From an uncultured Bdellovibrionales bacterium (lineage in GTDB: Bacteria; Patescibacteriota; Minisyncoccia; Moranbacterales; GWC2-37-73): a stretch of 64,000 bases of DNA. A program made the translations under genes and the position numbers. Shown in pieces: positions 844 through 47,986 of the stretch. Every line of letters starts with the position of its first letter. Position 1 is the stretch's first letter. Under the pieces are notes generated by a model that was not told the origin of the DNA, made no database searches, and saw only the letters and a list, made by a program, of their open reading frames with translations. Where the stretch lies: contig CAZAFB010000003.1 in assembly GCA_964484505.1 (NCBI GenBank), positions 37,044 to 101,043 on the forward strand. The letters run 5' to 3'.

Positions 844-940
844 AAGAACCACTGATTAGCACATGAACACACATGATTTCACTGATATAAATACAAATCA
901 TGTGTAATCAGGATAATCAAGTGTTAATCAGTGGTTCTGA
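844..940. repeat. Palindromic element family A, gene-less copy 1. Termini are AGAACCACTGATTAGCACATG and its reverse complement.
   Basis: Left end AGAACCACTGATTAGCACATG and right end TTAATCAGTGGTTCT are an imperfect inverted repeat. The same termini occur at 2421 and 15122/15609. Confidence 0.6.
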
Positions 941-1867: not shown

Positions 1868-1892
1868 ACTAGTATAATCGATTATTTTATAA

Positions 1893-2010
1893 TTTCAAAT
1901 TCACCAAATTACCTAATTCACCTAATAAAATTTCAAATGACCAAATATTTAGCATTTATGAATTTGGCATTTTATTAGGTGAATTAGATGAATTAGAAAT
2001 TAGGAATTTG
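1893..2010. repeat. Palindromic element family B, copy 1 (AATTCACCTAAT words followed by ATTAGGTGAATT)
   Basis: Arms of about 45 bp form a long hairpin between atpF and atpH. A near-identical element sits at 7061-7220. Confidence 0.65.
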
Positions 2011-2015
2011 TTACA

Positions 2016-2417
2016 ATGAAAATCACCACCAAACAATACGCGCAAACATTACTTGACCTGACGGAAAATAAATCCGAGCAGGAGGTTTCTGCTATTGTTC
2101 AAAAATTTGCCGCAGTGTTGAAAAATGACGGGCAGCTCAAAAATGCGGGGAAGATTATGGAAAAGTTTTCGCAGTTGTATAATGCAAAGCACGAGATCGT
2201 TGAAGCGGAAGTGATAACAAGATTTGAAATGGGAGATGTCGAATTGAAAAAGATTGAGGATTTTATTGAGGAAAAATATAAGGCTGAAAAAGTTGAAATA
2301 AGAAATGTTGTTGATGAGAAGATTAAGGGAGGGATTGTGATAAAAGTTGGGGATGAAGTGATTGATGGGTCGGTAAGCGCACAGTTAAAAAAATTGAAGA
2401 GGGAGTTGGTAAAATAA
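2016..2417 (+). CDS. atpH: ATP synthase delta (OSCP) subunit, short form
   Basis: Its position between atpF and atpA and an OSCP-like helical N-terminus. 133 aa. Confidence 0.7.
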   Translation: MKITTKQYAQTLLDLTENKSEQEVSAIVQKFAAVLKNDGQLKNAGKIMEKFSQLYNAKHEIVEAEVITRFEMGDVELKKIEDFIEEKYKAEKVEIRNVVDEKIKGGIVIKVGDEVIDGSVSAQLKKLKRELVK

Positions 2418-2420
2418 ATC

Positions 2421-2513
2421 AGAACCACTGATTAGCACATGATTTTTCTGATTACACATGATTGATTTTTATCAGTGAAATCATGTGTGTTCATGTGATA
2501 ATCAGTGGTTTGG
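2421..2513. repeat. Palindromic element family A, gene-less copy 2
   Basis: AGAACCACTGATTAGCACATGA at the left and TAATCAGTGGTTTGG at the right. Internal words are shared with copy 1 (CATGTGTAATCAG, TCACTGATA). Confidence 0.6.
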
Positions 2514-3007
2514 AATGACAGAAAGAGAAGTTCTTTTGAAAAAAATAAACGTCCGCATTCCAGCTTTCCGGAATGGGACGTTTACATAACAGGACGATCT
2601 TGCTATCGCTAGTCTGTCAAAAACCTATACTTTGCGAGAAGACGGAAAGCTGATGCAATGATCAATGTGAGGACAACGGTAGTCACGCATGTTTGAATGT
2701 GGGATCCGGTTGAAAGGTAGATTGATGGTGAAACTGTGGTGCTTATCGCTACTCCTCGTAGCAGGTTCATGGTTTCCTCCCTATGGTGCGTGTATAGTAG
2801 TTGAACATTGTCAACCGTCAACTATACACCCAAATTAACAATTTGTCAACCATCGAATTCTGATTATTGCATTATTGCCTTAAATAAGCCATAATTTAGT
2901 AATGAGGATTTAATTAAAAAACAGAAAGATACAGAATGAAGCAGAAAGACACAGAAATCATAAATTCCGTGTAGCTGTGTTATTCCGTAGTAAATCTGTG
3001 TAATTCC

Positions 3008-4522
3008 GTGAAATATATGAACAAAGACTACATCATTGATCAATTAAAAAAACAGATCGAAGGCTTCAAGACTGAGGCGACAACTGAGCAGGTTGGGAAA
3101 GTTATTGAGGTGGGAGACGGAGTGGCACGCATCTCGGGTCTTAGCAATCTTATGGCCTCAGAGATGGTAGAGTTCCCGAATGGGGAAATCGGCGTGGCGC
3201 TTAATCTTGAAGAAGATCGCGTCGGTGCGATGGTGCTTGGTGATTATCTCGGTATCAAAGAGGGCGATGAAGTGAAAGCGACCGGTAAAATACTTTCCAT
3301 CCCGGTCGGTGAAGGAATGATTGGACGTGTGATTGATCCGCTTGGAGCACCAGTAGATGGCAAGGGTGATATAAAATCAGATGCATATTATCCAGTAGAG
3401 AAGATTGCTCCCGGCGTAATTACTCGTAAGTCGGTGCATCAACCGGTGCAAACCGGTATCAAAGCGATCGATGCCTTGATTCCAATCGGACGTGGACAGC
3501 GTGAATTGATCATCGGCGATCGTCAGACTGGAAAGACTGCTGTGGCGATTGATACCATCATCAACCAGAAAGGGCAGAACATGAAATGTATCTATGTTGC
3601 GATCGGGCAGAAGGAATCGAAAATTGCCAGAATTTTGGGCGAACTTGAAAAGAACGGTGCGATGGAATATACGACAATTGTTGTGGCTGGCGCTTCGGAC
3701 AGTGCGGCTCTTTCCTACATTGCTCCTTATTCAGGTTGTGCACTCGGTGAATATTTTATGGACAAAGGTGAGGACGTGCTTATTGTGTTTGATGATCTTT
3801 CCCGCCATGCATGGGCATATCGTCAAATTTCTTTGATCTTGAAACGCCCACCAGGACGCGAGGCATATCCGGGAGATGTTTTCTATTTGCACTCACGCCT
3901 TTTGGAGCGCTCTGCTAAGCTTAATGAAAATTTCGGCGGCGGTTCGATGACAGCGCTGCCGATCATTGAAACGCAGGCAGGTGACGTATCCGCATATATT
4001 CCGACCAATGTTATTTCCATTACTGACGGACAAATTTTCTTGGAAACGGATTTGTTCTACAAAGGAGTACGTCCGGCATTAAATGTGGGTATTTCCGTTT
4101 CACGTGTGGGAGGAGATGCACAGATCAAAGCGATGAAGAAAGTTGCCGGAAAACTCAAATTGGAACTTGCACAGTTCCGCGAACTCGAAGCGTTTGCGCA
4201 ATTCGGATCCGATCTTGATGAAAAAACTCGCATCCAGATTGAACGCGGACGCCGCACAGTGGAAGTTTTGAAGCAAGGACAATATGAACCGATGGCAGTT
4301 GAACACCAAGTGGCTATTCTCTATGCTCTCATAAACGGCTTCATGGATGATGTGGCAATAGATAAAATTAAGGAATGGGAAAATGACTTCCATAAATATC
4401 TCGACACGCAAGCGAAAGAAGTCTTGTCGCTAATTACCGAAAAGAAAGAATTGAGCGAGGAAGTTGTGGCGGCACTGGAGAAAGCGATTAAGGAGTTTAA
4501 AGAGATATATCAAACGAATTAA
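3008..4522 (+). CDS. atpA: ATP synthase F1 alpha subunit
   Basis: Walker A motif GDRQTGKT in a 504 aa alpha-subunit homolog. Confidence 0.95.
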
Positions 4523-4609
4523 CACGAATTGATGACGAATGAAAACGAATCACGAATTCGTGTTTCGTGGAAATTCGTTCATACATTCGTGAAAATTTGT
4601 CAAAAATAA

Positions 4610-7003
<2,394 letters not shown>

Positions 7004-7060
7004 GTTGGATAAAATAATTAAGCGTATTTATTAAAAACGCTAAATTTATAATCAGTGTAT

Positions 7061-7220
7061 TTTGAATTCAAAATTCACCTAATTGCCTAATTCACCTAAT
7101 AAAATTTCAAATAATCAAATAAGACATATTTTAGATATTTGTGAATTTGGCATTTTATTAGATGAATTAGGTGAATTAGAAATTTGGTGAATTTGTAAAA
7201 ATGAATTTGGAATTATAAAC
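7061..7220. repeat. Palindromic element family B, copy 2
   Basis: AAATTCACCTAATTGCCTAATTCACCTAATAAAATTTCAAAT is followed by ATTTGGCATTTTATTAGATGAATTAGGTGAATT. It lies between atpD and atpC. Confidence 0.65.
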
Positions 7221-7666: not shown

Positions 7667-7818
7667 CCCTACAAATCTACAAATCAATTACCCGCATACC
7701 GGCGAGGCAGGCAAATATACAAATGTGCAAATACAGAAACTAGCGTTTTTGATAACGTTTATGATGTGTTTGTAAATTTGTATATTTGTATAAATTTGTA
7801 ATTTGTAGAACTAAAAAT

Positions 7819-8775: not shown

Positions 8776-8912
8776 AAAAATATGCCCGGTAGTGAAAATT
8801 CAAAAATAATCGCAGGAGCACGAAATTTTTGTATTATTGAATAAATTTTTAAATAAAAAATAAACAAATGAAATACTTTTGGGCAAAGCCCATTTGAATT
8901 TCTACTACCGGG
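8776..8912. repeat. Family C element with 20-bp terminal inverted repeats (CCCGGTAGTGAAAATTCAAA ... TTTGAATTTCTACTACCGGG) ending 1 nt before the ATG
   Basis: The two ends are near-perfect reverse complements. The last 41 nt are identical to the copy at 47857-47985. It contains a GGGCAAAGCCC mini-hairpin. Confidence 0.65.
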
Positions 8913-8913
8913 T

Positions 8914-10017
8914 ATGGAAACAACAAAAAAAATTCTTAAGATTGCTTTGATTATCATCATTGCGATTGTTTTGGCGTTCGCATTACTTCTGGCTTTGCGT
9001 GTTGCCAAAAACGAGAAGGGCGGTTCGCAAACGGGATATGATTCCGCTGGAACAATGCCGATGTCGATAGACGCGGGCAGAAGCATGATGGGCATTGAAA
9101 ACGGCGAAGGGATGGCTGATTTCAATATGCCAAACCCTGCATTGCAAGAAAGTGCTGCGATGCCTGCGCAGAAAGGAGAAGTTGTGGCGAGAGATGTGCA
9201 AGTCGCAGAGAAAAAAATCATCAAAGACGGATATATAAATGCCCAAGTGGATAATGCTGACAATGCAGCCAGGGATATTTCCGGAATTGCCAAACGTTTG
9301 GGCGGTGATGTCGAATCGATGAATTTCCGCAAGACCGCACAGAACGTAAAAAGCGGCACGATTGTCGTACGTGTTCCGTTTATCAATTTCGATACGGCTT
9401 TTGAAGAAATCAAGCAAGTTGCAACATTGGTCAGGAGCGAATCGGCTAATGCGCAAGATGTGACCAGTCAAGTTGCCGATTTGGAAGCTCGCCTCAAAAA
9501 CAAGCAGGCTGAAGAAGAATCTTTTCAGCAAATTTTGGATAATACGAACGGCAAGACCGAAGATGTTTTGATGGTAACGCAAGAACTATCTCGCGTACGC
9601 GGGGAAATTGAACAACTTGAAGCGCAGAAGAAATATCTTGCATCGCAAACGGATATGTCCACGATCACGGCAAATATTTCCGAAGATGTGACGGTTGGCA
9701 CCGCGACCTCCTGGAGGCCATGGCAGATTGCCAAGACTGAATTCGCCAGCATGCTTAAAGATTTGCAAAAATTGATTGGAGCATTGATTGTGATTGTTGT
9801 TCGTCTCACTCCGATACTCCTGGTGTTTATTCTGTTCTTCCTGATTGTTTTTTGGGTAGTGAAAGCTATTATTAAATCAATTTTTTGGAAAAAGAAGCAA
9901 AAGGAGATGCAACAAAAAACAGAAGAACCGATAACTCCTGCTGGCCCTGAGTCGATAAAGAAAGCTCCACGCACAAGAACGATAGCTGCAAGACGTATTA
10001 TTTCACGAAAAAAGTAA
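8914..10017 (+). CDS. DUF4349-like membrane protein (N-terminal TM, central domain, C-terminal TM)
   Basis: This architecture and central region are typical of DUF4349 proteins. Confidence 0.6.
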   Translation: METTKKILKIALIIIIAIVLAFALLLALRVAKNEKGGSQTGYDSAGTMPMSIDAGRSMMGIENGEGMADFNMPNPALQESAAMPAQKGEVVARDVQVAEKKIIKDGYINAQVDNADNAARDISGIAKRLGGDVESMNFRKTAQNVKSGTIVVRVPFINFDTAFEEIKQVATLVRSESANAQDVTSQVADLEARLKNKQAEEESFQQILDNTNGKTEDVLMVTQELSRVRGEIEQLEAQKKYLASQTDMSTITANISEDVTVGTATSWRPWQIAKTEFASMLKDLQKLIGALIVIVVRLTPILLVFILFFLIVFWVVKAIIKSIFWKKKQKEMQQKTEEPITPAGPESIKKAPRTRTIAARRIISRKK

Positions 10018-12172: not shown

Positions 12173-12635
12173 AACACTGCTAAGTGAAAAATTGAGGCGT
12201 GGGAGATGTTAACTGACATCGACCGCGCCTTTTATTTTGCAAAGAAATTTCTTGAATTTCTTTGCACGCGGACAGATGCGGACGAGACGCAGAATTACGC
12301 GGAAAAATATCAAAACCGATTCGAATCTACGAATATCCGCAAATAAACTAAAAATGCAAAATACTTCGATACTCGAAAGTATCAAAGTATTTGACCAATT
12401 TATTTTTGAAGAAATTTTTTGATAAAAAAACAAAGCCATATGGCCTTGTCCTTATGTGCCGCGGGAGAGACATCTCACTCGCTCTGACTTTCAGTCTGAG
12501 CTCTTTGAAAACCCACGGTTTTCAAGACTTTCCTTCACGGGAAAACTCAGGTTTTCCCGACCCCTTTCCTGGTTCGAGTCTCCAAAGAAATAAAATTTAA
12601 AAGCCAACTATAAATAGTTGGCTTTTAAATTTCAG

Positions 12636-12719
12636 TACCGCGGGAGAGACTCGAACTCTCATGATATTGCTATCGCTGGATTTTGAGTCCAGTGCGTCTA
12701 CCAGTTCCGCCACCGCGGC
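12636..12719 (-). tRNA. tRNA-Leu(CAA), type II with a long variable arm
   Basis: Manual fold: acceptor GCCGCGG/CCGCGGT, D-loop GAACTGGTAGA, anticodon stem CTGGA/TCCAG with loop CTCAAAA, variable arm GATAGCAATATC, T-arm GAGAG-TTCGAGT-CTCTC. Confidence 0.75.
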
Positions 12720-14213: not shown

Positions 14214-15137
14214 ATGGCTGCTCAAAATTTTGGTCTCGGCAGGGGATTATCATCACTTATACCTAACGCAGGCACTGCGCCACAGACAGATGCGCCGGTA
14301 GGAAAACGTCCCGTGATCGGCGAAGATGATTCGATTCGCGGTGACAAATATGTCGTGGAAATCGATATTGACTCAATTGTGCCAAATCCGCAACAGCCGC
14401 GCATCCGTTTTGACGAGGAAAAATTGGCCGACCTGGCTTCATCAATCAAAACACATGGAATCATTCAGCCGTTAATAGTAAGTCGCGATGGCAATCAATA
14501 TGAAATTATTGCCGGTGAGCGTCGTTATCAGGCGAGCAAAATTGCCGGACTGAAGAAATTGCCGGTGATTGTTCGTGAAGCCGGGGAATTAGAGAAGCTT
14601 GAGTTGGCGATAATCGAAAATATTCAACGTCATGACCTTAATGCAATTGAAGAGGCGAAAGCATATCAAAAATTGATAGATGAATACCAAATGAATCAGG
14701 AGGAGGTTGCTTTCAAGATGGGGAAGAGTCGCAGCTTGGTAGCTAATAAAGTGCGTTTGTTGTCGCTGCCTGTGGAAATTCAACGGGCGCTTATTGAAGG
14801 CAGGATTACCGAGGGTCATGCAAAGGCGATTTTGGCAATTTCCAACCCTGAAAAACAACGCGCTCTATATGAACTTATTCTCAGAGATAATTTGACCGTA
14901 CGCCAAACTGAAGACAAGACCAAAGATATTTCGGTCAAACCGCATAAACGTGTCGTCAATGTCGACCCTGCATTAAAAGAAATTGAAGAAACTCTGATTG
15001 GCGCTCTTGGCACGAAAGTTAAAATTTCCAAAGCCGGCAATGGCGGGAAAATCGTGATTGAATATTATTCGCAAGAAGATTTGGATGCGCTACTAAATAA
15101 GATACGAACCACTGAAAATATAAGAACCACTGATTAG
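14214..15137 (+). CDS. parB: Chromosome partitioning protein ParB/Spo0J
   Basis: GLGRGLSSLIP, the ParB box IAGERRYQASKIAG and an HTH. The last codons and the TAG stop lie inside the repeat-family-A terminus. Confidence 0.9.
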   Translation: MAAQNFGLGRGLSSLIPNAGTAPQTDAPVGKRPVIGEDDSIRGDKYVVEIDIDSIVPNPQQPRIRFDEEKLADLASSIKTHGIIQPLIVSRDGNQYEIIAGERRYQASKIAGLKKLPVIVREAGELEKLELAIIENIQRHDLNAIEEAKAYQKLIDEYQMNQEEVAFKMGKSRSLVANKVRLLSLPVEIQRALIEGRITEGHAKAILAISNPEKQRALYELILRDNLTVRQTEDKTKDISVKPHKRVVNVDPALKEIEETLIGALGTKVKISKAGNGGKIVIEYYSQEDLDALLNKIRTTENIRTTD

Positions 15138-15619
15138 CACGTGATTAAAATGATTGCACTGATCATAAATGCAGCATGAAAAAATATGTTGATGACAAAT
15201 ATTATAAATCTGAAGTAACCGGCAGCATAATTAACTGCGCGCAGAGAGTTCATCGCGAGCTAGGCAATGGATTCCAAGAAGTCATTTATCAAAAAGCTTT
15301 AGAAATAGAACTAAAACGTGCTGGCCTAAAGTTTGAACGAGAAAAGGAGATGGCTATTTATTATGAAAACGAACTCATCGGAACCAGGAGAGTTGATTTT
15401 CTTGTTGATAAGGATATTATGGTTGAACTAAAAGCAACTACAAAACTGGAAGACGTCAATGTGGCACAACTCATAAACTATATAGAGGCATATAAGGTAA
15501 AAGTAGGCCTGCTTATAAACTTCGGCTCAAAAAGTTTGGAAGTGAAACGTTATGTAAAATGATCCCTATCACGTGTAATCAGGGAAATCAGTGCTAATCA
15601 GTGGTTCTCTAGTGGTTCT
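15122..15619. mobile_element. Family A element carrying a GxxExxY (PD-(D/E)xK-like) gene between 21-bp terminal inverted repeats
   Basis: Left end AGAACCACTGATTAGCACGTG (15123-15143). Right end CAGTGCTAATCAGTGGTTCTC (15589-15609), plus a partial second copy TAGTGGTTCT. 19 of 21 positions match as a reverse complement. Confidence 0.55.
15176..15562 (+). CDS. GxxExxY family protein (PD-(D/E)xK nuclease-like fold)
   Basis: NGFQEVIYQKALEIELKRAGLKFEREKEMAIYYENELIGTRRVDFLVDKDIMVELKA ... GLLINFG matches the GxxExxY family. Confidence 0.75.
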   Translation: MKKYVDDKYYKSEVTGSIINCAQRVHRELGNGFQEVIYQKALEIELKRAGLKFEREKEMAIYYENELIGTRRVDFLVDKDIMVELKATTKLEDVNVAQLINYIEAYKVKVGLLINFGSKSLEVKRYVK

Positions 15620-17093
15620 TTTTCAGCGCTCTTCTTATGTGGGATTTTGCCACAGAAGTGCGCGCGAACTTAAGCCAGTCGCCATTGGGCGATTTTCTAT
15701 CTTTGGAAGTTATAATCTCGATCACTTGTCCGTTTTTGATGATGTGATCCAATGGTATCATCTTCCCGTCAGCCTTGGCGCCGACCGTGTGGTGTCCGAT
15801 TTCGCTGTGGATGGCATAGGCGAAATCTATAGCGGTGGCTTCCTCCGGAAGATCGATAATATCGCCGCGGGGAGTGAATGCAAAAATGTGATTGCGAAAA
15901 AAATCTATTTTCAAGGTTTCCAAAAATTCTTGATCATCTCGACCTATTTCCGTTTGCCACTCACGCAATTGTTTGACCCAAACCAATTCTTTTTCGGTAA
16001 CAAGCGGCTTTTTGCTCATGAATAAAATATTTTTCCAGCTTTTTTTGGCTTTTTCACTATAAATCCAATGTGCTGCAATACCGAACTCGGCTTCATCATG
16101 CATTTTCTGAGTGCGTATTTGTACTTCCAAAATTCTGCCTTCCGGACCGAAAATAGTGGTGTGAATGGATTGATATCCATTTGGTTTAGGCAGGGATATA
16201 TAGTCCTTTATTCTACCGATCATGGGGCGATATTTTTTGTGAACTATGCCCAACGCCTCATAACAATCAGTAACTTCCGGTACTATTATGCGCACTGCTG
16301 AAAGGTCATAAATTCTGTTTATATCCATGTCGTGCTTCTTGAGTTTTTCAAAGAGACTATAGAGACTTTTGGCTCTCCCGTGAATTTCCAAGACGCTTAT
16401 ACCAGCATTGGCCAATTCTTTGCGAAGCTGTTTGATCGCCTGATTCACATAAACCTCTCGCTCCTTGTAACTTTTTTTAACCAATTCCTCGGCGTAGACA
16501 TAATTTTCATGGTCAAGATATTTAAAAGAAAGGTCTTGCAATTGAGTTTTGATTTCGCCGATTCCCAAACGGTTTGCCAGGGGCACAAAAACTTCCATGG
16601 TCTCGCGGGCGATGCGCTGCTGTTTTTCCGGGGGGTTGTGTTCCAGTGTCCGCATGTTGTGCAGGCGATCCGCCAGTTTTATGATAACGACTCGGATATC
16701 CGCAGCCATGGCCAAAAACATTTTGCGCAGATTTTCCAAAAAATATTCTTCATGGGAACCACGCAATTTCAATTTGCCCAATTTGGTTACGCCGTCAACC
16801 ATGTGAGAGATTTCACTATCGAAATTCCTTTCAATTTCTTCCAGAGTATATGCTGTATCTTCGGGAACATCATGAAGTAATCCAGCAGCTATTGTTTTAG
16901 CTCCCATACCTATTTCAGCCAGAATTTTCGCTGTTGCCAGGGGATGTTGAATATAGTCGTCGCCACTGCGTCTTTTTTGACCGCAGTGCGCTTTTTTGGC
17001 AACCTCAAAAGCCTTGCGGATTAAGGCATCTTTTTGCTTGTCCAAAGGGAATTTAAACGCTTTGATAATATCTTCAATGACTAATTGCTTCAT
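15609..17093 (-). CDS. Bifunctional (p)ppGpp synthetase/hydrolase, RelA/SpoT family, no ACT domain
   Basis: HD domain (HDVPED), synthetase domain and TGS domain. The stop codon lies in the family A repeat. Confidence 0.9.
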   Translation of the reverse strand: MKQLVIEDIIKAFKFPLDKQKDALIRKAFEVAKKAHCGQKRRSGDDYIQHPLATAKILAEIGMGAKTIAAGLLHDVPEDTAYTLEEIERNFDSEISHMVDGVTKLGKLKLRGSHEEYFLENLRKMFLAMAADIRVVIIKLADRLHNMRTLEHNPPEKQQRIARETMEVFVPLANRLGIGEIKTQLQDLSFKYLDHENYVYAEELVKKSYKEREVYVNQAIKQLRKELANAGISVLEIHGRAKSLYSLFEKLKKHDMDINRIYDLSAVRIIVPEVTDCYEALGIVHKKYRPMIGRIKDYISLPKPNGYQSIHTTIFGPEGRILEVQIRTQKMHDEAEFGIAAHWIYSEKAKKSWKNILFMSKKPLVTEKELVWVKQLREWQTEIGRDDQEFLETLKIDFFRNHIFAFTPRGDIIDLPEEATAIDFAYAIHSEIGHHTVGAKADGKMIPLDHIIKNGQVIEIITSKDRKSPNGDWLKFARTSVAKSHIRRALKKNH

Positions 17094-19542: not shown

Positions 19543-19672
19543 AATGCTAATTGTTGCTAATGATAAATACGAATGAACGCTAATAATATATGCTAATTAT
19601 TGCAAATAAATAAATGTGAATGAGTTTACTTTTCAGCAGCTTTTGTGTTTATGATTTGCGAAAATTAGCATG

Positions 19673-36729: not shown

Positions 36730-36843
36730 ATGAAAGTACGAGCATCAGTGAAAAAAATATGTGCCAAGTGCAAGATAGTAAAGCGCAGAGGAAAACTCTA
36801 TGTGATTTGCGTTACTCCTAAGCACAAGCAACGCCAAGGATAA
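36730..36843 (+). CDS. rpmJ: 50S ribosomal protein L36
   Basis: Manual translation [37 protein letters not shown], 37 aa with the C-x2-C...C...H zinc ribbon. It is below the ORF-track length cutoff. Confidence 0.85.
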
Positions 36844-36951
36844 AAATCGCGAATTGACGCAAATGGAATCGCGAATAATCGCGAATATATCAGCGGTGGT
36901 TATTAGTGAATATTGGAGATAAATTAGTGTAAATTAGTGATTTATAAAATT
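36844..36951 (+). repeat. r-protein leader repeat copy 1 (CGCGAAT and AATTAGTG words)
   Basis: AATCGCGAAT x3, then ATAAATTAGTGTAAATTAGTGATTTATAAAATT immediately before the rpsM ATG. Confidence 0.7.
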
Positions 36952-37338
36952 ATGGTACGTATCGCAGGAATAAATTTGCCGGACGAAAAGCGCATTGACA
37001 TCGCGCTTACCTATATATACGGCATCGGAGACACGACAAGTAATCGCATTTTGGAAGGTTTGGGAATCGACAAGTCTTTGCGCACCAAGGATCTGAGCGC
37101 TGACCAAGCAAACAAGATCCGCGAAGAGGTGGAAAAGAAATATCGCGTGGAAGGAGAACTCAAACATGAGGTAAAGATGAACATCAAACGTCTCAAGGAA
37201 ATTGGTTGCTATCGTGGCTCACGCCATCAGAAAGGTCTTCCGGTAAACGGACAGCGCACCAAAACCAATAGTCGCACCGTTCGCGGTAATGTTCGTCGCA
37301 CGATGGGAAGCGGCCGCAGATCGGAATCTAAGACATAA
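36952..37338 (+). CDS. rpsM: 30S ribosomal protein S13
   Basis: MVRIAGINLP N-terminus. Confidence 0.9.
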   Translation: MVRIAGINLPDEKRIDIALTYIYGIGDTTSNRILEGLGIDKSLRTKDLSADQANKIREEVEKKYRVEGELKHEVKMNIKRLKEIGCYRGSRHQKGLPVNGQRTKTNSRTVRGNVRRTMGSGRRSESKT

Positions 37339-37445
37339 TGATAAAAATCGCGAATCGACTCTAATATAGTCTCGAATAATCGCGAATGTTTTATTAGGGA
37401 TAATTAGTGAATTAATTCGTGTTGATTAGAGATTCATATCATCAT
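37339..37445 (+). repeat. r-protein leader repeat copy 2
   Basis: AAATCGCGAATCGACTCTAATATAGTCTCGAATAATCGCGAATG ... ATAATTAGTGAATTAATTCGTGTTGATTAGAGATTC. Confidence 0.7.
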
Positions 37446-37925
37446 ATGGCAGAAGAAAATAAGACAACAGAAGAAGTGATGGAAAAAGTCGAGGTTGCAA
37501 CCGAAGCTCCTGCTGAAGAAATTCAGACTCAGGAAACTGCTGCGGAAGCTAAGAAAAAAAAGAAGAAGCTCAAAAGGCAAATTTTGAAGGGGCAGGCTCA
37601 TATCCATTGCACATACAATAACACCAAGGTTGCTTTGTCTGACATTAATGGTTCTATTCTTGGCTGGTCAAGTTCCGGCCTGCTCGGTTTCAAAGGAGCA
37701 AAGAAAGCTACTCCCTATGCTGCAGCGCAGGTGGTTGCCGATGTGTCGGAAAAGGTGAAGAAATATGGCTTACAAGAATTGGAAGTATATGTGAAAGGTG
37801 TCGGTAGCGGAAGAGAATCTTCAATTAGAGCTTTGGCTAACCGCGGTTTTGAACTGGTTTCAATCAAGGACATTACTCCGATCCCGCACAACGGATGTAA
37901 GGCAAAGAAACCTCGTAGAGTCTAG
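37446..37925 (+). CDS. rpsK: 30S ribosomal protein S11 with a Glu/Lys-rich N-terminal extension
   Basis: S11 core HIHCTYNNTKVALSD ... GFKGAKKATPYAA after an approximately 45 aa acidic/K-rich tail. Confidence 0.9.
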   Translation: MAEENKTTEEVMEKVEVATEAPAEEIQTQETAAEAKKKKKKLKRQILKGQAHIHCTYNNTKVALSDINGSILGWSSSGLLGFKGAKKATPYAAAQVVADVSEKVKKYGLQELEVYVKGVGSGRESSIRALANRGFELVSIKDITPIPHNGCKAKKPRRV

Positions 37926-38032
37926 AGGATATCAGTCGCGAATCGACACTAATTAGTCTCGAATAATCGCGAATGTGAATTTATTAGAGATAATTAGTGA
38001 TAAATTAGTGTAAATTAGAGATTTATAACATT
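37926..38032 (+). repeat. r-protein leader repeat copy 3
   Basis: GGATATCAGTCGCGAATCGACACTAATTAGTCTCGAATAATCGCGAATG ... GATAAATTAGTGTAAATTAGAGATTTATAACATT, then ATG. Confidence 0.7.
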
Positions 38033-38665
38033 ATGGCACGTGATTTAGGATCAAAATGCAAGAAATGCCGTCGCGCATCAGAAAAACTCTTCCTTAAGGG
38101 TGAACGTTGTGCTTCTCCCAAGTGCGCTATGGTCAGAAGGCCATATGCTCCGGGAGCGCATGGTAAAAGTGTTTCCAGAGGCGCAAGTGAATATGGCAAA
38201 CAGTTGGCAATGAAACAAAAAATCAAGCGCATCTATGGTGTGCTCGAAAGGCAATTCCGCAAGCATTATGAAGAAATCAGCGGCAAGCAAGGAGTTACCG
38301 GTGATTTGCTCATGGCTCGTTTGGAAATGCGTCTCGATAATGTGGTTCGCCGCATGGGATTTGCCAGCGCGCCGTCACTTGCAAGACAGTTGGTTAATCA
38401 TGGATCATTCATGGTTAACGGCAAGCGTGTCACTATTCCTTCCTATGAAGTGAAAATCGGTGATGTTATCTCCATCAATCCTTTGAAAGCTGAGAATGTA
38501 TATTTCAATAATCAAAAACAGTGGATCCAAAATAAAAAGGATGTTCCAGCTTGGCTTCTGCTGGATGGTGCGAAATTGGAAGGAAAAATCGTGTCTGTTC
38601 CAAGTCGCGAGGATGTAGGCGTGCACGTCGATCCTCAGATGGTAGTTGAATATTATTCTCGCTAA
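38033..38665 (+). CDS. rpsD: 30S ribosomal protein S4
   Basis: N-terminal zinc knuckle CKKCRR ... CASPKC and S4 domain. Confidence 0.9.
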   Translation: MARDLGSKCKKCRRASEKLFLKGERCASPKCAMVRRPYAPGAHGKSVSRGASEYGKQLAMKQKIKRIYGVLERQFRKHYEEISGKQGVTGDLLMARLEMRLDNVVRRMGFASAPSLARQLVNHGSFMVNGKRVTIPSYEVKIGDVISINPLKAENVYFNNQKQWIQNKKDVPAWLLLDGAKLEGKIVSVPSREDVGVHVDPQMVVEYYSR

Positions 38666-38739
38666 ATTTTTACTACAAACTAACTTCATAAGTAAACGTG
38701 TTCTTTGCGCCTGGGCGCGATCAGCATGTTCCAAAGGCT

Positions 38740-39720
38740 ATGCAGGGAGTATCGCTTCCTCAAAAACCAAAGTATATTCCTGTCGATGACCACAGCGGCA
38801 AGTTTGAAATCCTCGGATGCTATCCGGGATATGGCGCTACCTTGGGTAACGCCCTTCGTCGTGTGCTGCTCTCTTCTTTGGAAGGGGCTGCTGTCACTTC
38901 AGTTAAGATCAAAGGTGTTTCCCATGAATTTTCCACCATTAGTGGTGTAATGGAAGATGTGGTTCAGATTGTGCTTAATCTCAAAAAAATTCGCTTTAAG
39001 ATGTATTCAGACGAGCCGGTGAAAGTTTCTCTCAAATCAAAAGGGGAAGGTCCGGTGACTGCAGGCAGCATTGTTTGCCCTTCCAGCGTGGAAGTGGTAA
39101 ATGGCGAACAAATAATCGCAACCGTTACTGACAAGAAGACTGAACTGGAGATGGAATTGGAAGTAGGTAAGGGCTTGGGATATATTCCAATTGAACAACA
39201 GGAACGCCCGGATAAGGAAATCGGAGTTATTGCAATCGACGCGGTGTACACCCCGATTCGTCGTGTAAATTATGAAGTTGAGAACATGCGTGTAGGAAAG
39301 CGCACTGATTTCAATAAGATAACCTTGGAAATCGTAACCGATGGCAGCATTACGCCAGAAGAAGCGTTCGATAAGTCCGTGAGGATACTGATCGAGCAAT
39401 TCTCGACGCTGGCTCAAATCGAAGTCGTTTCCGAGAAGGCTGAAGAGGAAGAAGAAGTTAAAGAAGCAGAAGCAGTGAAAGAAACATCTTCTGAAAAAAA
39501 AGAGGAAGAGCAGGAGGATCCGCTGAAGCTAAAACTTGTTGATCTGAAGGGAATTTCCACCCGTACGGCAAATGTCCTGGAAATCCACAAGATCGTCAAG
39601 ATCAAGGACGTGGTCAAATTCACTGAAGAAAAACTTCTCGAACTGGAAGGAATGGGAGAGAAGGGAGCCAAGGAAATCAAGAAGGCGATTGGTGAATTCG
39701 GTCTTACATTAAAGCAATAA
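38740..39720 (+). CDS. rpoA: DNA-directed RNA polymerase alpha subunit
   Basis: Alpha NTD (GYGATLGNALRRVLLSS) and CTD. The 38740 start is chosen in frame with the longer ORF. Confidence 0.9.
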   Translation: MQGVSLPQKPKYIPVDDHSGKFEILGCYPGYGATLGNALRRVLLSSLEGAAVTSVKIKGVSHEFSTISGVMEDVVQIVLNLKKIRFKMYSDEPVKVSLKSKGEGPVTAGSIVCPSSVEVVNGEQIIATVTDKKTELEMELEVGKGLGYIPIEQQERPDKEIGVIAIDAVYTPIRRVNYEVENMRVGKRTDFNKITLEIVTDGSITPEEAFDKSVRILIEQFSTLAQIEVVSEKAEEEEEVKEAEAVKETSSEKKEEEQEDPLKLKLVDLKGISTRTANVLEIHKIVKIKDVVKFTEEKLLELEGMGEKGAKEIKKAIGEFGLTLKQ

Positions 39721-39835
39721 GGATATAAATCGCGAATCGACGCGGATTTAATCCCGAATTATCGCGAATAGCGATGCGAATTGATTCATTAGAGATTATT
39801 AGCGATAAATTAGTGTTGATTAGGGATTTAATTAT
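39721..39835 (+). repeat. r-protein leader repeat copy 4
   Basis: GGATATAAATCGCGAATCGACGCGGATTTAATCCCGAATTATCGCGAATAGCG ... GATAAATTAGTGTTGATTAGGGATTTAATTAT. Confidence 0.7.
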
Positions 39836-40201
39836 ATGAAACATAGAGTAACAGGAAGAAAATTTAGCAGAAAGAAAGGTCCGCGTGAGGCGATGATCAA
39901 GACTTTGCTCGGTAGCATTATTGTGCGTGAGCGCGTTACTACCACTGAGGCGAAAGCCAAGGAAGCAAAGCCAAAAATTGATCGTTTGATCACCAAAGCG
40001 AAAAAAATGAAAGCCGATCCAGCTAAGAGCACCGCAGTGATTCGCGATTTGCGTAAGCACTTGCCTTTGCCTGCTGTGAAGAAGCTTTCCGGAGAATTCC
40101 TGGATCGTTTCCGGGCTCGCCAAAGTGGCTATACCAGAATAACCAAGCTGGAGCAAAGAAAAAGCGATGGCGCAAGAATGGCCGTGATAGAATTCGTTTA
40201 A
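39836..40201 (+). CDS. rplQ: 50S ribosomal protein L17
   Basis: MKHRVTGRKFSRKKGPREAM. Confidence 0.9.
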   Translation: MKHRVTGRKFSRKKGPREAMIKTLLGSIIVRERVTTTEAKAKEAKPKIDRLITKAKKMKADPAKSTAVIRDLRKHLPLPAVKKLSGEFLDRFRARQSGYTRITKLEQRKSDGARMAVIEFV

Positions 40202-40308
40202 GATCGCGAATGATCACGAATAAAATTTCGCGAATTTACACGAATGACTTGCTGAAATTATTCGAGATTATTAATGATAAATTAGTGTAAATTAGCGAAT
40301 AAATTAAT
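40202..40308 (+). repeat. r-protein leader repeat copy 5 (more diverged)
   Basis: GATCGCGAATGATCACGAATAAAATTTCGCGAATTTACACGAATG ... GATAAATTAGTGTAAATTAGCGAATAAATTAAT. Confidence 0.65.
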
Positions 40309-40695
40309 ATGAAGAGACAATATCATTTATTTGATGCGAAAGGGAAGAGGCTGGGAAGACTGGCTACTGAAATCGCAACCGTTTTGAGCGGCAAAGGAAA
40401 AGTTGACTTTACCCCGCATATTGACGGAGGAGACACTGTGGTTGTGATTAATGCAGCTGAAATTGCAGTTACCGGAAACAAGATGACCGACAAGATATAT
40501 CACAGTTTCAGCGGTTATCCGGGTGGAATCACTTCAATCGCGCTGCGCGACCTGCTCAAGAAGGATGCTCGCAAAGTGATTCAAAACGCAGTATATGGCA
40601 TGCTTCCGAAAAACAAATTGCGCGACAAGATGATGACGCGTTTGTTTGTCTACGCTGATAGCGAGCACAAGCATGGAATAGACATTACACATTAA
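40309..40695 (+). CDS. rplM: 50S ribosomal protein L13
   Basis: L13 fold; 128 aa. Confidence 0.9.
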   Translation: MKRQYHLFDAKGKRLGRLATEIATVLSGKGKVDFTPHIDGGDTVVVINAAEIAVTGNKMTDKIYHSFSGYPGGITSIALRDLLKKDARKVIQNAVYGMLPKNKLRDKMMTRLFVYADSEHKHGIDITH

Positions 40696-40802
40696 GGATA
40701 TGAATCGCTAATCGACACGAATTTTATCTCGAATAATCGCGAATGAAATTCATTAGAGAAAATTAGCGATAAAATTAGCGTAAATTAGAGATTTATAACA
40801 TT
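40696..40802 (+). repeat. r-protein leader repeat copy 6
   Basis: GGATATGAATCGCTAATCGACACGAATTTTATCTCGAATAATCGCGAATG ... GATAAAATTAGCGTAAATTAGAGATTTATAACATT, then ATG. Confidence 0.7.
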
Positions 40803-41288
40803 ATGGCAGTAAAAGCAGTAAAAAAAGTTGAGAAAAAAGATGCGCCAAAGGCGGCGAAAACGGTAAAGGCGTCAGCAGCTTCTTCCAAAGAGAAATATTT
40901 TGCCGGTGTTGGAAGACGCAAAGCTTCCGTAGCGCAGGTCCGCATATATCAGCAAGAAGGTTCCGGCGAGGCTGATGTGATGATCAATGACCGCAAGATG
41001 AAAGACTATGTTCCCATGGTTAATTTGCAAACAACCGTGCTTGCACCAATGAGAGTGACTGGCACATTTGGCAAATTCCGCATGAGCGTGGTTGTTCGCG
41101 GTGGCGGTTTCAATGGACAAGCTGAAGCGATCCGCTTGGGACTTTCCCGCGCGCTGGTGGCATATGACGAAGCGCTCAAAAAAACGCTTCGTGACAATGG
41201 TTTCCTTACCCGCGATTCCCGCGCCGTAGAACGCAAGAAGCCGGGTCTCAAGAAGGCAAGACGTGCTCCACAGTGGGCTAAAAGATAG
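40803..41288 (+). CDS. rpsI: 30S ribosomal protein S9 with a Lys/Ala-rich N-terminal extension
   Basis: S9 core GGGFNGQAEAIRLGLSRAL ... KKARRAPQWAKR after an approximately 30 aa KxxA tail. Confidence 0.9.
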   Translation: MAVKAVKKVEKKDAPKAAKTVKASAASSKEKYFAGVGRRKASVAQVRIYQQEGSGEADVMINDRKMKDYVPMVNLQTTVLAPMRVTGTFGKFRMSVVVRGGGFNGQAEAIRLGLSRALVAYDEALKKTLRDNGFLTRDSRAVERKKPGLKKARRAPQWAKR

Positions 41289-41401
41289 AATATCTTTCAG
41301 CACAGTGTGGAAAGGAAAGGGGTCGGGAAAACCTGGGTTTTCCCGTGGCGGAAGTACTGAAACCGCTGGGTTTCAGGGAGCGAAGCGACTCCACAGTGGG
41401 C
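41279..41401. repeat. Hairpin-rich insert at the 3' end of rpsI, bounded by the 13-bp direct repeats CTCCACAGTGGGC
   Basis: Direct repeats at 41266-41278 and 41389-41401. Between them lie GGGAAAACCTGGGTTTTCCC and CTGAAACCGCTGGGTTTCAG hairpins. The 38-bp core recurs at 12533-12570 in inverted orientation. Confidence 0.55.
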
Positions 41402-47832: not shown

Positions 47833-47856
47833 AACACTAAATGAGGGAAAAATATG

Positions 47857-47985
47857 CCCGGTAGTGAAAATTCAAAATAGTAATTTCGGGCATTTATAGT
47901 TTTACAAGCGTGATAAACGAAAGATAATCAGATAAAATATTAAAGGTTCTTTTGGGCAAAGCCCATTTGAATTTCTACTACCGGG
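47857..47985. repeat. Family C element, copy 2, ending 1 nt before the greA ATG
   Basis: Same 20-bp terminal inverted repeats and an identical 41-nt 3' segment (CTTTTGGGCAAAGCCCATTTGAATTTCTACTACCGGG) as 8776-8912. Confidence 0.65.
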
Positions 47986-47986
47986 T

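What the first reader, a model, noticed from the sequence alone, without database searches (positions are those of the whole stretch)
15122..15619. GxxExxY (PD-(D/E)xK) gene packaged between 21-bp inverted repeats whose gene-less copies punctuate the atp operon
Three elements share the termini AGAACCACTGATTAGCACRTG and its reverse complement: 844-940, 2421-2513 and 15122-15619. The first two are about 95 bp and gene-less. The third carries a complete GxxExxY ORF. This looks like an autonomous element with MITE-like derivatives, and the encoded protein is a candidate mobilising nuclease. All copies sit exactly at gene 3' ends (atpB, atpH, parB, relA).
Basis: partly seen in the sequence, partly recalled or inferred. 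Interest (0 to 1): 0.7.

Follow-up and report, generated by a model that had tools for sequence, protein, structure and literature searches.

The report
Repeat-framed nuclease gene with hairpin derivatives
A tiny nuclease gene sits between two inverted repeat arms whose gene-less, hairpin-forming copies lie at gene ends in this and related bacteria. The same packaging recurs around this uncharacterised gene family in several bacterial phyla, which points to a small mobile or semi-domesticated DNA element that I could not find described.

Summary
Six arms of one repeat family form two gene-less hairpins (844-940, 2419-2513) and one unit carrying a 128-aa GxxExxY / PD-(D/E)xK gene (15106-15619). 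All abut gene 3' ends. The parB stop codon lies inside the left arm.

The pattern is general. In 80 metagenomic GxxExxY loci, 40 of 68 testable genes have flanking inverted repeats, against 1 of 73 control ORFs. Each arm has a conserved end box, TGTCTGAAYCAC, followed by about four GAT(T) iterons roughly 9 nt apart. Bacteroides and Thiosymbion show the same design.

Several signs point to mobility:
- Four genomic contexts hold about 77%-identical gene units.
- The orthologous parB-relA site is empty in two relatives.
- Occupancy and orientation vary within atp operons.
- Thiosymbion short copies are internal deletions of the gene copy.

Other signs point to persistence: dN/dS is 0.016, another species has the gene at the same site, no target duplications were seen, and phages and nearly all plasmids lack the gene.

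Best reading: a REPIN/RAYT-like or MITE-like system whose linked enzyme is a stand-alone PD-(D/E)xK nuclease. The nuclease's role is inferred, not shown. No description was found in the searchable literature.

The parts
844..940 (.). Gene-less hairpin copy 1, between atpB and atpE. Arms are about 845-888 (L-type) and 896-940 (R-type).
   Evidence: locate the arms. One search gives the fold (-40.1 kcal/mol, z -9.0). The copy is present in all 10 contigs of 91-100% identical strains.
2419..2513 (.). Gene-less hairpin copy 2, directly after atpH. It is inverted relative to copy 1. Arms are 2419-2463 (R-type) and 2471-2510 (L-type).
   Evidence: (I1/I2). In the 97%-identical strain L169 only the first arm is present, and the sequence beyond it differs.
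15106..15116 (+). Remnant of a second, outer left arm. It lies inside the 3' end of parB.
   Evidence: Close strains L073-L075 and L187-L189 carry a complete 47-nt outer arm here. The window has a 29-nt deletion between CACTGA repeats, which lengthens ParB from 301 to 307 aa.
15123..15165 (+). Left (upstream) arm of the gene-bearing unit: a terminal box followed by GAT(T) iterons (CACTGATT, CACGTGATT, AAAATGATT, GCACTGAT). It contains the parB stop codon TAG at 15135-15137.
   Evidence: Searches give the family-wide arm consensus.
15176..15562 (+). GxxExxY protein gene (128 aa), a stand-alone PD-(D/E)xK nuclease-fold protein. The motif is G32-x-x-E35-x-x-Y38, with D74, E84 and K86.
15566..15608 (-). 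Right (downstream) arm, in inverted orientation.
   Evidence: As RNA it can pair with the left arm over about 40 bp (-51.3 kcal/mol).
15609..15619 (-). The relA stop codon plus a 9-nt outer partial terminus (AGTGGTTCT), which encodes the last relA codons (AAG AAC CAC TAG).
   Evidence: In L086 the relA stop lies inside a complete outer right arm.

Best explanation
The locus belongs to a widespread family of very compact units of about 450-600 bp, bounded by inverted repeats and not described in the literature I could search. Each unit is one stand-alone GxxExxY PD-(D/E)xK nuclease gene framed by two arms of about 45 nt. Each arm has a conserved terminal box ((T)TGTCTGAAYCAC; TC[A/T]GAACCAC in this lineage) followed by three to four GAT(T) iterons about 9-10 nt apart.

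The 85-100-nt hairpins at 844-940 and 2419-2513 are gene-less left-arm-plus-right-arm derivatives of the same family. The relationship resembles MITEs to an insertion sequence, or REPINs to a RAYT.

Shown:
- The gene and its arms travel together as a unit.
- Gene-less copies share the arms.
- Copies differ in position and orientation between relatives, and empty sites exist.
- The protein has a nuclease fold with an intact catalytic motif and is under strong purifying selection.

Inferred:
- The nuclease is the trans-acting factor that recognises the iteron arms, probably as several protomers on duplex DNA or on an extruded hairpin, and cuts at or near the terminal box. This would spread or maintain the gene-less copies.
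- The gene copy itself rarely moves and is inherited vertically, as RAYTs are.
- The units survive only where they abut gene 3' ends. The terminus carries stop codons in two frames (TGA, TAG), so it can replace the last codons of a gene. At parB-relA it stands where relatives have an intrinsic terminator.
- Because they lie inside operons they are transcribed, and their stems probably affect mRNA processing or stability as a side effect or co-opted function.
For: Gene-arm linkage:
- About 77%-identical genes in four unrelated contexts are all framed by GTCTGAACCACTGATTA...TAATCAGTGGTTCAGAC.
- In 80 metagenomic loci with 40-78% identical proteins, 40 of 68 testable genes have flanking inverted repeats at least 10 points above the best of 20 shuffled-flank controls. 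Only 1 of 73 control ORFs in the same loci does.
- In the subset whose ends match the CTGAAYC-type box (27 units listed, 37), arm consensus and iteron statistics are consistent: 3.7 GAT per arm against 0.95 when shuffled, with modal spacing of 9 nt.
- The same design appears in Thiosymbion (31% identity, same terminus) and in Bacteroides finegoldii (other iterons).

Derivatives:
- 46 paired gene-less hairpins occur in 72 genome loci plus the window.
- In Thiosymbion, three classes of short copy are internal deletions that keep the 5' and 3' ends of the gene.

Mobility or turnover:
- Family-A hairpins occupy different spacers of the atp operon in seven genomes, in both orientations at the same spacer.
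- The parB-relA junction holds the unit in the window lineage and in L086. In L180 (ParB 79% identical) and L183 (73%) it holds only a plain terminator.
- The parB-terminus junction differs by 1 nt between the two occupied lineages.
- Strain L169 has a solo arm.

Enzyme:
- D74, E84, K86 and E35 are invariant in 43 homologues.
- dN/dS is 0.016.

Sequence rather than pairing is conserved. Among 23 hairpins there are no compensatory changes, and the variable base in CAC[T/A]GATT changes six times without compensation. This fits protein-binding iterons.

Gene-end placement: 43 of 46 hairpins have an ORF stop within -30 to +60 nt of an end. Distances cluster at +3 to +7, at -9 (TGA in the terminus) and at -13 (TAG/TAA in the terminus).
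Against: - No binding or cleavage data exist for any family member.
- No target-site duplication is visible at the 27 well-defined units listed, so a classical cut-and-paste signature is missing.
- The parB-relA gene copy is as conserved as its housekeeping neighbours: 73.6% against ParB 65.8% and RelA 71.5%. It sits at the same site in a distant species. Losses could therefore explain the empty sites as well as independent insertions.
- The gene is absent from 50,697 phage records and occurs in only 8 of 72,556 plasmids, which is unlike typical selfish elements.
- The window holds at least six other iteron-hairpin families with no cognate gene within 64 kb.
- Occupancy of the same spacers in several species could reflect selection for a hairpin function rather than mobility.
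- The single contig suggesting in-situ inversion (L076) was not reproduced in the 13 other contigs of the locus that were examined.
Confidence: 0.5

Rival explanations
1. RNA-level packaging, not mobility. The arms are transcribed stems that insulate or process transcripts. A stem of about 40 bp around the ORF and about 25-40 bp in the gene-less copies could be an RNase III substrate or an mRNA stabiliser or attenuator. The gene-less copies would then be host regulatory hairpins kept by selection at operon junctions, and the nuclease would have an unrelated cellular role.
For: - The left and right arms can pair at -51.3 kcal/mol, and the predicted minimum-free-energy fold of the whole unit contains that long-range stem.
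- The short copies fold at -40 kcal/mol.
- The copies lie inside the atp operon, where they must be co-transcribed.
- The same spacers (after atpH, after atpG) are occupied in several species.
- At parB-relA the unit stands where relatives have an intrinsic terminator.
- The gene is under strong purifying selection and no target duplications were seen.
Against: - There is no covariation: 0 of 21 consensus pairs show compensatory change, and six uncompensated changes occur at one stem position.
- In many lineages the two arms match only in the end box and the GATT islands.
- Both orientations occur at the same spacer.
- The hairpins are not followed by a U-tract (reading). The consensus scan, run only on 14900-15800, calls no terminator at the arms of the gene-bearing unit.
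- This reading does not explain deletion derivatives that retain gene fragments, tandem arms, replaced gene C-termini, or the four different genomic contexts.
- No Rfam family matches.
Confidence: 0.15
2. Homing rather than transposition. The gene-less palindrome, with left and right arms contiguous, is the recognition site of the nuclease. Cleavage near its centre is repaired from a gene-bearing copy, with the arms as homology, so the gene is copied into pre-existing hairpins. The hairpins themselves spread by some other route.
For: - The gene sits exactly where the loop of the gene-less hairpin is, and the arms abut the start and stop codons.
- No target duplication is expected, and none is seen.
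- The gene unit at parB-relA lies beside extra arms, as if it had landed within a cluster of arms.
Against: - Gene-less copies far outnumber gene copies: 46 hairpins against 1 gene copy with this terminus in the 72 genome loci.
- No case was found of the same site holding a hairpin in one genome and a gene-bearing unit in another. The empty parB-relA sites hold ordinary terminators, not family-A hairpins.
- The Thiosymbion short copies are deletions of the gene copy, not virgin sites.
Confidence: 0.15
3. Passenger gene. The arms are recognised by an unlinked recombinase or transposase, or are copied by replication slippage or template switching at palindromes. GxxExxY would then be cargo with another function, for example repair, addiction or defence.
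For: - No known transposase family is encoded.
- Other cargo occurs between family-A arms: terminator stem-loops in L059, L067 and L072, and unrelated 60-80-nt inserts.
- Other hairpin families in the window have no linked gene.
- The fold is closest to Cas4.
Against: - The linkage is specific to this one protein family across phyla and across different iteron sequences: 59% against 1.4% of control ORFs.
- The terminal box is conserved even at 31% protein identity.
- No recombinase is consistently nearby in the contexts listed.
- There is no hit to defence-system models beyond a marginal Cas4b match, E 0.006.
Confidence: 0.15

Closest known systems
REPIN / RAYT systems (REP-associated tyrosine transposases; PMC3116915, PMC5581495, listed)
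   Same: - Short palindromic repeats form roughly 100-nt hairpins dispersed in intergenic space at gene ends.
- One or a few protein genes are framed by the same repeats.
- The gene is inherited vertically under purifying selection and is rare on plasmids.
- Repeats cluster in tandem or inverted arrays.
   Different: - The linked enzyme here is a 128-aa PD-(D/E)xK nuclease, not an HUH/Y1 (IS200/IS605-type) transposase.
- The arms are about 45-nt iteron arrays with a terminal box, not 20-40-nt REP stem-loops with a GTAG/CGTC head.
- At least two gene copies with the same arms occur in one MAG, RIFOXYA12_FULL_44_15.
Insertion sequence plus MITE pairs
   Same: - Terminal inverted repeats are shared by a gene-bearing copy and many short gene-less copies.
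- Deletion derivatives retain the gene ends (Thiosymbion).
- Presence/absence differs between relatives.
   Different: - No target-site duplication was found.
- The encoded protein belongs to no known transposase class.
- The unit (about 480 bp) is smaller than any insertion sequence I know of (own knowledge).
- The gene copy is a long-term resident at one site.
REP/BIME and other intra-operon palindromes as mRNA stabilisers (own knowledge of E. coli malE-malF)
   Same: Stable hairpins lie immediately after stop codons inside operons. This is the likely consequence for the atp transcripts here.
   Different: The function was not tested here, and both the sequence family and the linked gene differ.
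Homing endonuclease genes
   Same: A small stand-alone nuclease gene interrupts a site that exists uninterrupted elsewhere. There is no target duplication.
   Different: - The targets would be dispersed palindromic repeats, not a conserved host gene or an intron/intein.
- No filled-versus-hairpin allele pair was found.
[not shown]
   Same: The PD-(D/E)xK core fold and catalytic motif.
   Different: - There is no significant sequence match to any solved chain; best E is 0.1, to an unrelated protein.
- The Cas4 chains are 202-215 aa against 128 aa here, so the additional Cas4 elements (the Fe-S cluster module, own knowledge) are presumably missing; this was not examined.
- There is no CRISPR context.
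ORF-containing intervening sequences of 23S rRNA (own recollection; PF05635 proteins)
   Same: A small ORF is enclosed by a long inverted-repeat stem. In L077 a PF05635 gene lies directly next to a GxxExxY unit.
   Different: None of the 40 GxxExxY loci scanned, nor the window, contains rRNA. This resemblance is a lead only.

Membership tests
GxxExxY protein family (TIGR04256 / Pfam PF13366 PDDEXK_3) | Profile match above the curated cut-off | tested here: met
   135.4 bits against a cut-off of 35, and 131.6 bits against a cut-off of 22. Both matches cover the full profile length.
GxxExxY protein family (TIGR04256 / Pfam PF13366 PDDEXK_3) | GxxExxY motif | tested here: met
   G32-F-Q-E35-V-I-Y38. 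G32, E35 and Y38 are invariant in 43 homologues.
PD-(D/E)xK nuclease superfamily | Alpha-beta-beta-beta-alpha-beta core fold | tested here: met
   [not shown]
PD-(D/E)xK nuclease superfamily | Catalytic D...(D/E)xK residues present | tested here: met
   D74, E84 and K86 are invariant in 43 homologues. D74 and K86 are invariant in the five-sequence cross-phylum alignment, where position 84 is E or D.
PD-(D/E)xK nuclease superfamily | Nuclease activity | not testable with these tools
   No experimental data were found for any member.
Insertion sequence / MITE pair | Gene-bearing and gene-less copies share terminal inverted repeats | tested here: met
Insertion sequence / MITE pair | Short copies are internal-deletion derivatives of the long copy | tested here: inconclusive
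   Met in Thiosymbion, with three deletion classes. In the window lineage the short copies are arms only, with no gene remnant.
Insertion sequence / MITE pair | Target-site duplication | tested here: not met
   No direct repeat flanks the 27 units with clear ends that were listed.
Insertion sequence / MITE pair | Encodes a recognised transposase (DDE, HUH, Tyr, Ser, DEDD) | tested here: not met
   The only Pfam and NCBIfam hits are PDDEXK_3 and GxxExxY.
Insertion sequence / MITE pair | Presence/absence polymorphism at orthologous sites | tested here: met
   The parB-relA site is empty in L180 and L183 and filled in the window and L086. Occupied atp spacers differ between species. Strain L169 differs from the window.
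REPIN / RAYT system | Dispersed extragenic palindromes plus a gene framed by the same repeats | tested here: met
REPIN / RAYT system | The linked gene is an HUH/Y1 (IS200/IS605-like) transposase | tested here: not met
   The protein is PD-(D/E)xK.
REPIN / RAYT system | Vertical inheritance and purifying selection of the gene | tested here: met
   dN/dS is 0.016. The gene lies at the same site in a species with 66% ParB identity.
REPIN / RAYT system | REP head tetranucleotide (GTAG or CGTC; PMC3733652, as summarised in the abstract shown) | tested here: not met
   The ends read (T)TGTCTGAAYCAC or TCAGAACCAC.
23S rRNA intervening sequence with ORF | Located inside a 23S rRNA gene | tested here: not met
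   No rRNA was found in the window or in the 40 GxxExxY loci scanned.
Integron cassette / attC | Core sites RYYYAAC / GTTRRRY at the cassette ends | tested here: not met
   The ends read GTCTGAAC and GTTCAGAC, and the fourth base of GTTC is not a purine (reading). No integrase was seen among the neighbouring genes listed.
Intrinsic (Rho-independent) terminator | GC-rich stem followed by a U-tract | tested here: not met
   The scan of 14900-15800 calls no terminator at the arms of the gene-bearing unit. Reading shows no T-run after 940 or 2513.

The most novel reading that the evidence does not exclude
GxxExxY proteins would be the catalytic core of a previously unrecognised class of minimal mobile element, only about 0.5 kb long. 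In this class a stand-alone roughly 125-aa PD-(D/E)xK nuclease recognises iteron arrays in its own inverted-repeat arms and mobilises itself and MITE-like hairpin derivatives without target duplication. It would be a sixth enzymatic solution to transposition or homing, present across bacterial phyla: CPR, Bacteroidota and Gammaproteobacteria in the examples seen here. It would also assign a function to a family of about 18,000 clusters at 50% identity.
Probability: 0.3. Interest if true: 0.9.

Novelty: new variant of a known kind. Interest (0 to 1): 0.75.

Why it matters
GxxExxY/PDDEXK_3 is a large family: 18,203 clusters at 50% identity at E<=1e-3. It is listed as 'function unknown' in the only survey that mentions it (PMC3424549).

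Two results give the family a concrete, testable hypothesis. The genes are systematically framed by iteron-bearing inverted repeats, and gene-less copies of those arms populate intergenic space. The arms are therefore the likely substrate of the protein.

If the nuclease drives the repeats, this is a new enzymatic class of repeat-mobilising system, parallel to RAYT/REPIN. It would also explain part of the dense hairpin content of streamlined CPR genomes.

There are practical consequences as well:
- The hairpins supply stop codons and rewrite the C-termini of essential genes such as parB and relA.
- They may stand in for terminators.
- They may also break assemblies, a possibility prompted by one unconfirmed contig (L076).

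Annotation pipelines should therefore recognise them.

Tried and rejected
- **Chance.** Rejected: 0 matches expected against 6 observed.
- **A feature peculiar to this window.** Rejected by the genome and metagenome scans.
- **Structure conserved by covariation.** The RNAalifold consensus of 23 hairpins shows no compensatory pairs. I therefore built no covariance model and make no claim of a conserved RNA structure.
- **Known RNA family.** No Rfam hit in the window apart from two tRNAs, and none in 40 loci. This also removes the 23S-IVS idea I had recalled from memory.
- **Target-site duplications.** None found.
- **Gene remnants in the 110-160-nt CPR hairpins.** Only chance-level matches of 11-16 nt.
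- **More GxxExxY genes in the window, to pair with the other hairpin families.** None found.
- **Solved structure by sequence.** None.
- **Defence-system or phage-family membership.** Only marginal hits.
- **Phage or plasmid carriage.** 0 phage records and 8 plasmid records.
- **Confirmation of the inverted junction seen in L076.** Six further contigs all show the standard order, so I treat it as unconfirmed.
- **Promoter in the left arm.** The conserved GATTAAAATGATT looks like a -10 box, but the consensus scan calls no promoter there. It stays a speculation.
- **Literature.** Searches for GxxExxY, PDDEXK_3, PF13366/TIGR04256, and PDDEXK with MITE found no functional study and no mention of flanking repeats.
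Full report
**1. The observation**

The 21-mer terminus, allowing up to 3 mismatches, occurs six times: 845+, 918-, 2421+, 2492-, 15123+ and 15588-. None is expected in shuffles. An 11-nt core gives the same six sites against 0.72 expected. A profile of the arms finds exactly six arms (E 1e-11 to 1e-14) and one 10-nt remnant at 15106-15115.

The arms are about 45 nt long, not 21. The two short copies have no ORF and fold into long hairpins, at -40.1 and -39.4 kcal/mol with z -9.0 and -5.6. Copy 2 is the reverse complement of copy 1. The two arms of an element therefore differ from each other ('L-type' and 'R-type'), and elements occur in both orientations within the same operon.

ORF 15176-15562 is a full-length GxxExxY / PDDEXK_3 protein.

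The neighbours are atpB, atpE, atpF, atpH and atpA on one side of the window, and parA, parB, relA/spoT and topA on the other. The gene ends relate to the repeats as follows:
- The atpB stop ends 1 nt before the repeat.
- The atpH stop ends 3 nt before it.
- The parB stop TAG (15135-15137) is inside the left arm.
- The relA stop lies 1 nt beyond the right arm, within a 9-nt partial extra terminus.

**2. Close strains**

Contigs of roughly 93-100% identical strains carry the same parB-[unit]-relA arrangement. In the approximately 93% identical group the left arm is present twice in tandem. The window has lost 29 nt of the outer copy between two CACTGA repeats, which extends ParB from 301 to 307 aa.

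Between the window and that group the gene shows dN 0.007 and dS 0.443, a ratio of 0.016, which indicates strong purifying selection. One assembly has a Q39* nonsense change.

One contig (L076) joins the relA 3' end to the outer left arm, as if the unit were inverted. The 13 other contigs of the locus that I examined show the standard order, so I leave this unconfirmed.

Hairpin copy 1 is present in all ten strain contigs recovered through AtpE. In strain L169 (97% identical), copy 2 is only a solo arm, and about 550 nt of the window (2464-3010) are replaced by 77 nt.

**3. The terminus elsewhere**

An 18-mer of the terminus hits 72 loci in the species-representative genomes. About 35 single hits would be expected by chance, by my own uniform-composition estimate. 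Most hits, however, lie in Moranbacteria/Parcubacteria MAGs. Together with the window they contain 46 paired hairpins of 60-170 nt.

Of the 46 hairpins, 43 have an ORF stop within -30 to +60 nt of an end. The distances are quantised:
- +3 to +7: the stop lies just outside the element.
- -9: the stop is the TGA of GAACCACTGA.
- -13: the stop is the TAG/TAA of ...GATTAG.

The terminus therefore often supplies the stop codon of the neighbouring gene.

Six of these loci are atp operons of other species. Family-A hairpins sit in different spacers:

| Spacer | Genomes occupied |
|---|---|
| after atpB | window only |
| after atpF | L031 |
| after atpH | window, L013, L038, L045 |
| after atpG | L013, L026, L031, L045, L070 (not the window) |

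Both orientations occur at the same spacer.

**4. The gene always comes with the arms**

Homologues 73-79% identical lie in four other contexts:
- next to a PF05635 gene between Fib_succ_major genes;
- after an ORF6N gene;
- between two giant LamG proteins;
- in UBA4824.

One further homologue lies again between parB and relA, in a species whose ParB is only 66% identical. Every one is framed by GTCTGAACCACTGATTA...TAATCAGTGGTTCAGAC, sometimes with extra tandem arms.

In that second parB-relA species, both convergent genes end in CAG AAC CAC TGA inside termini. The junction with parB is shifted by 1 nt relative to the window lineage.

**5. A property of the whole family**

A metagenome scan returned 80 loci with proteins 40-78% identical to the window protein. 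Among the 68 genes with enough flank to test, 40 have an inverted repeat across the gene scoring at least 10 points above the best of 20 shuffled controls. Only 1 of 73 other ORFs in the same loci does.

The arms read (T)TGTCTGAAYCAC.GATT followed by further GAT(T) boxes. There are 3.7 GAT per 50-nt arm against 0.95 after shuffling, and the spacing is 8-11 nt with a mode of 9. More distant proteins (40-47% identity) keep the iteron design but lose the CTGAAYC box.

Examples from other phyla:
- **Thiosymbion (Gammaproteobacteria) and an unclassified MAG.** The proteins are 31% identical, yet the terminus AGAACCACTGATTAACAC is the same. The shorter Thiosymbion copies are internal deletions of the gene copy, in three classes that retain 38-163 nt of one end and 40-55 nt of the other.
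- **Bacteroides finegoldii.** The annotated GxxExxY gene after radA is framed by GTTCACCACAGAGGACGCAGAGGACACGGAGG / its complement. This is the same architecture with another iteron.

Gene-bearing units measure 452-605 bp. No target-site duplication is visible.

**6. Empty sites**

Orthologous parB-relA junctions were recovered through ParB homologues.

| Locus | ParB identity | Spacer | Content |
|---|---|---|---|
| L180 | 79% | 35 nt | ordinary bidirectional terminator |
| L183 | 73% | 105 nt | ordinary terminator |

Neither has arms or the gene. Their ParB and RelA C-termini differ from the terminus-encoded ones in the occupied genomes.

The site is therefore polymorphic between species. 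Either the unit inserted twice at almost the same nucleotide, or it is old and was cleanly lost at least twice.

**7. The protein**

Other searches add little:
- No solved structure matches by sequence.
- No defence model matches beyond a marginal Cas4b hit.
- One PHROG of unknown function matches weakly.
- No phage record carries the gene, and only 8 plasmid records do, mostly megaplasmids.

The family has 18,203 clusters at 50% identity at E<=1e-3. Nearly all of the best-scoring 150 are stand-alone proteins of about 125-160 aa.

**8. Structure or sequence?**

Aligning 23 family-A hairpins shows that the paired columns are simply the invariant ones. No pair shows compensatory change. The variable base in CAC[T/A]GATT changes six times without a matching change in the other arm. 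In many lineages the two arms agree only in the end box and the GATT islands.

What is conserved is therefore a set of sequence motifs at helical-repeat spacing, as expected for protein-binding iterons at element ends. It is not a base-paired structure.

Even so, the arms of this unit can pair as RNA over about 40 bp (-51.3 kcal/mol), and the short copies are very stable hairpins. Because they lie within operons, effects at the RNA level are likely but untested.

**9. Interpretation**

The evidence best fits a REPIN/RAYT-like or IS/MITE-like system whose linked enzyme is a PD-(D/E)xK nuclease. What is shown:
- linkage of gene and arms;
- shared ends between gene-bearing and gene-less copies;
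- derivatives of the gene copy;
- positional and orientational turnover;
- a constrained nuclease-fold protein.

What is inferred is that the nuclease recognises and cuts the arms, and that it thereby spreads or maintains the copies.

The long residence and strong constraint of the parB-relA copy argue for a persistent, semi-domesticated lifestyle rather than a typical selfish insertion sequence. So do the lack of target duplications and the near-absence from plasmids and phages.

The rivals cannot be excluded without experiments. They are pure RNA-level packaging, homing into palindromes, and a passenger gene moved by an unlinked enzyme. The report weighs the evidence for and against each.

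**10. Novelty**

Full-text searches found no functional study of the family and no mention of flanking repeats. The search terms were GxxExxY, PDDEXK_3, PF13366/TIGR04256, and PDDEXK with MITE. The one survey that lists PF13366 gives its function as 'Unknown'. The REPIN/RAYT literature describes the nearest analogue.

I rate this a new variant of a known kind. It would be categorically new if the nuclease is shown to be the mobilising enzyme.

Noticed in passing
window 1873-2020 and 7047-7205; 7712-7792 (also about 22031 and 54846); 1309-1378; 4535-4578; 2920-3010; 19544-19671: At least six other families of intergenic hairpins are built of short iterons of about 9-11 nt (AATTCACCTAATT, TTTGTA, GAACA, ACGAAT, CAGAAAGA/ATTCCGTG, GCTAAT). 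Nearly every spacer of the atp operon holds one. None has a linked GxxExxY gene within the window.
   Followed up: partly
window 36835-40811: The ribosomal-protein/rpoA operon (rpsM, rpsK, rpsD, rpoA, rplQ, rplM, rpsI) has six copies of a roughly 110-nt two-arm repeat (AATCGCGAAT-type arm plus ATTAGTGAT-type arm). Each fills a whole spacer from stop codon to next start codon. The arms are 71-79% complementary.
   Followed up: partly
window 8776-8920 and 47848-47993: Two copies (73% identical) of a roughly 145-nt element with its own 23-nt inverted repeat, ATGCCCGGTAGTGAAAATTCAAA / TTTGAATTTCTACTACCGGGTAT.
   Followed up: no
window 12509-12570 and 41313-41373: A 62-nt repeat in inverted orientation, 85% identical, with copies 28.7 kb apart (TTCCTTCACGGGAAAACTCAGGTTTTCCCGACC...). 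The first copy lies next to the tRNA gene at 12636-12719.
   Followed up: no
window 2513-3010 (ORF 2609-2821, minus strand): A roughly 500-nt insert sits between atpH and atpA. It has a terminator-like stem-loop (2549-2585), an antisense 70-aa ORF and a consensus promoter (TTGACA-17-TATAGT) on the minus strand. It is absent from the 97%-identical strain L169. Analogous antisense small genes, with unrelated proteins, sit between atpG and atpD in L013, L026, L031, L045 and L070.
   Followed up: partly
L187 2043-2613 (sample ERR14149396): The GxxExxY gene of an otherwise identical strain carries CAA>TAA (Q39*). This is either a tolerated knockout or a sequencing error.
   Followed up: partly
L076 1-700 (sample SRR26638131): The relA 3' end is joined directly to the outer left arm, which implies that the whole unit is inverted relative to relA. 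It is the only such contig among the 14 examined for this locus, so an assembly artefact is not excluded.
   Followed up: partly
L059 4544-4665; L067 5550-5668; L072 2104-2216: Family-A hairpins whose loops contain a canonical GC-rich terminator stem-loop with a T-tract. This cargo is something other than the nuclease gene.
   Followed up: no
L077 2955-3815: A GxxExxY unit ends 5 nt before the start codon of a PF05635 (23S_rRNA_IVP / bAvd-like four-helix-bundle) gene. Upstream of the unit lie ATTTGAC iterons that may belong to that second gene, which raises the possibility of a nested insertion.
   Followed up: no
L180 3395-3460: The bidirectional terminator at the empty parB-relA site (AAAAAAGAACCGC-TTTAAC-GCGGCTCTTCTTTTTT) resembles the element terminus AGAACCAC / GTGGTTCT. 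This may be chance, or it may hint that the units target or mimic terminator stems.
   Followed up: no
L055 1490-1607 (Treponema sp. MAG): Six tandem 20-nt repeats each match the 18-nt terminus with 0-2 mismatches. Their relation to the element family is unknown.
   Followed up: no
proteins P0244, P0266, P0271, P0279 and others: About a tenth of the best family representatives are 250-275-aa proteins with two GxxExxY domains in tandem. This is consistent with the protein acting as a dimer.
   Followed up: no
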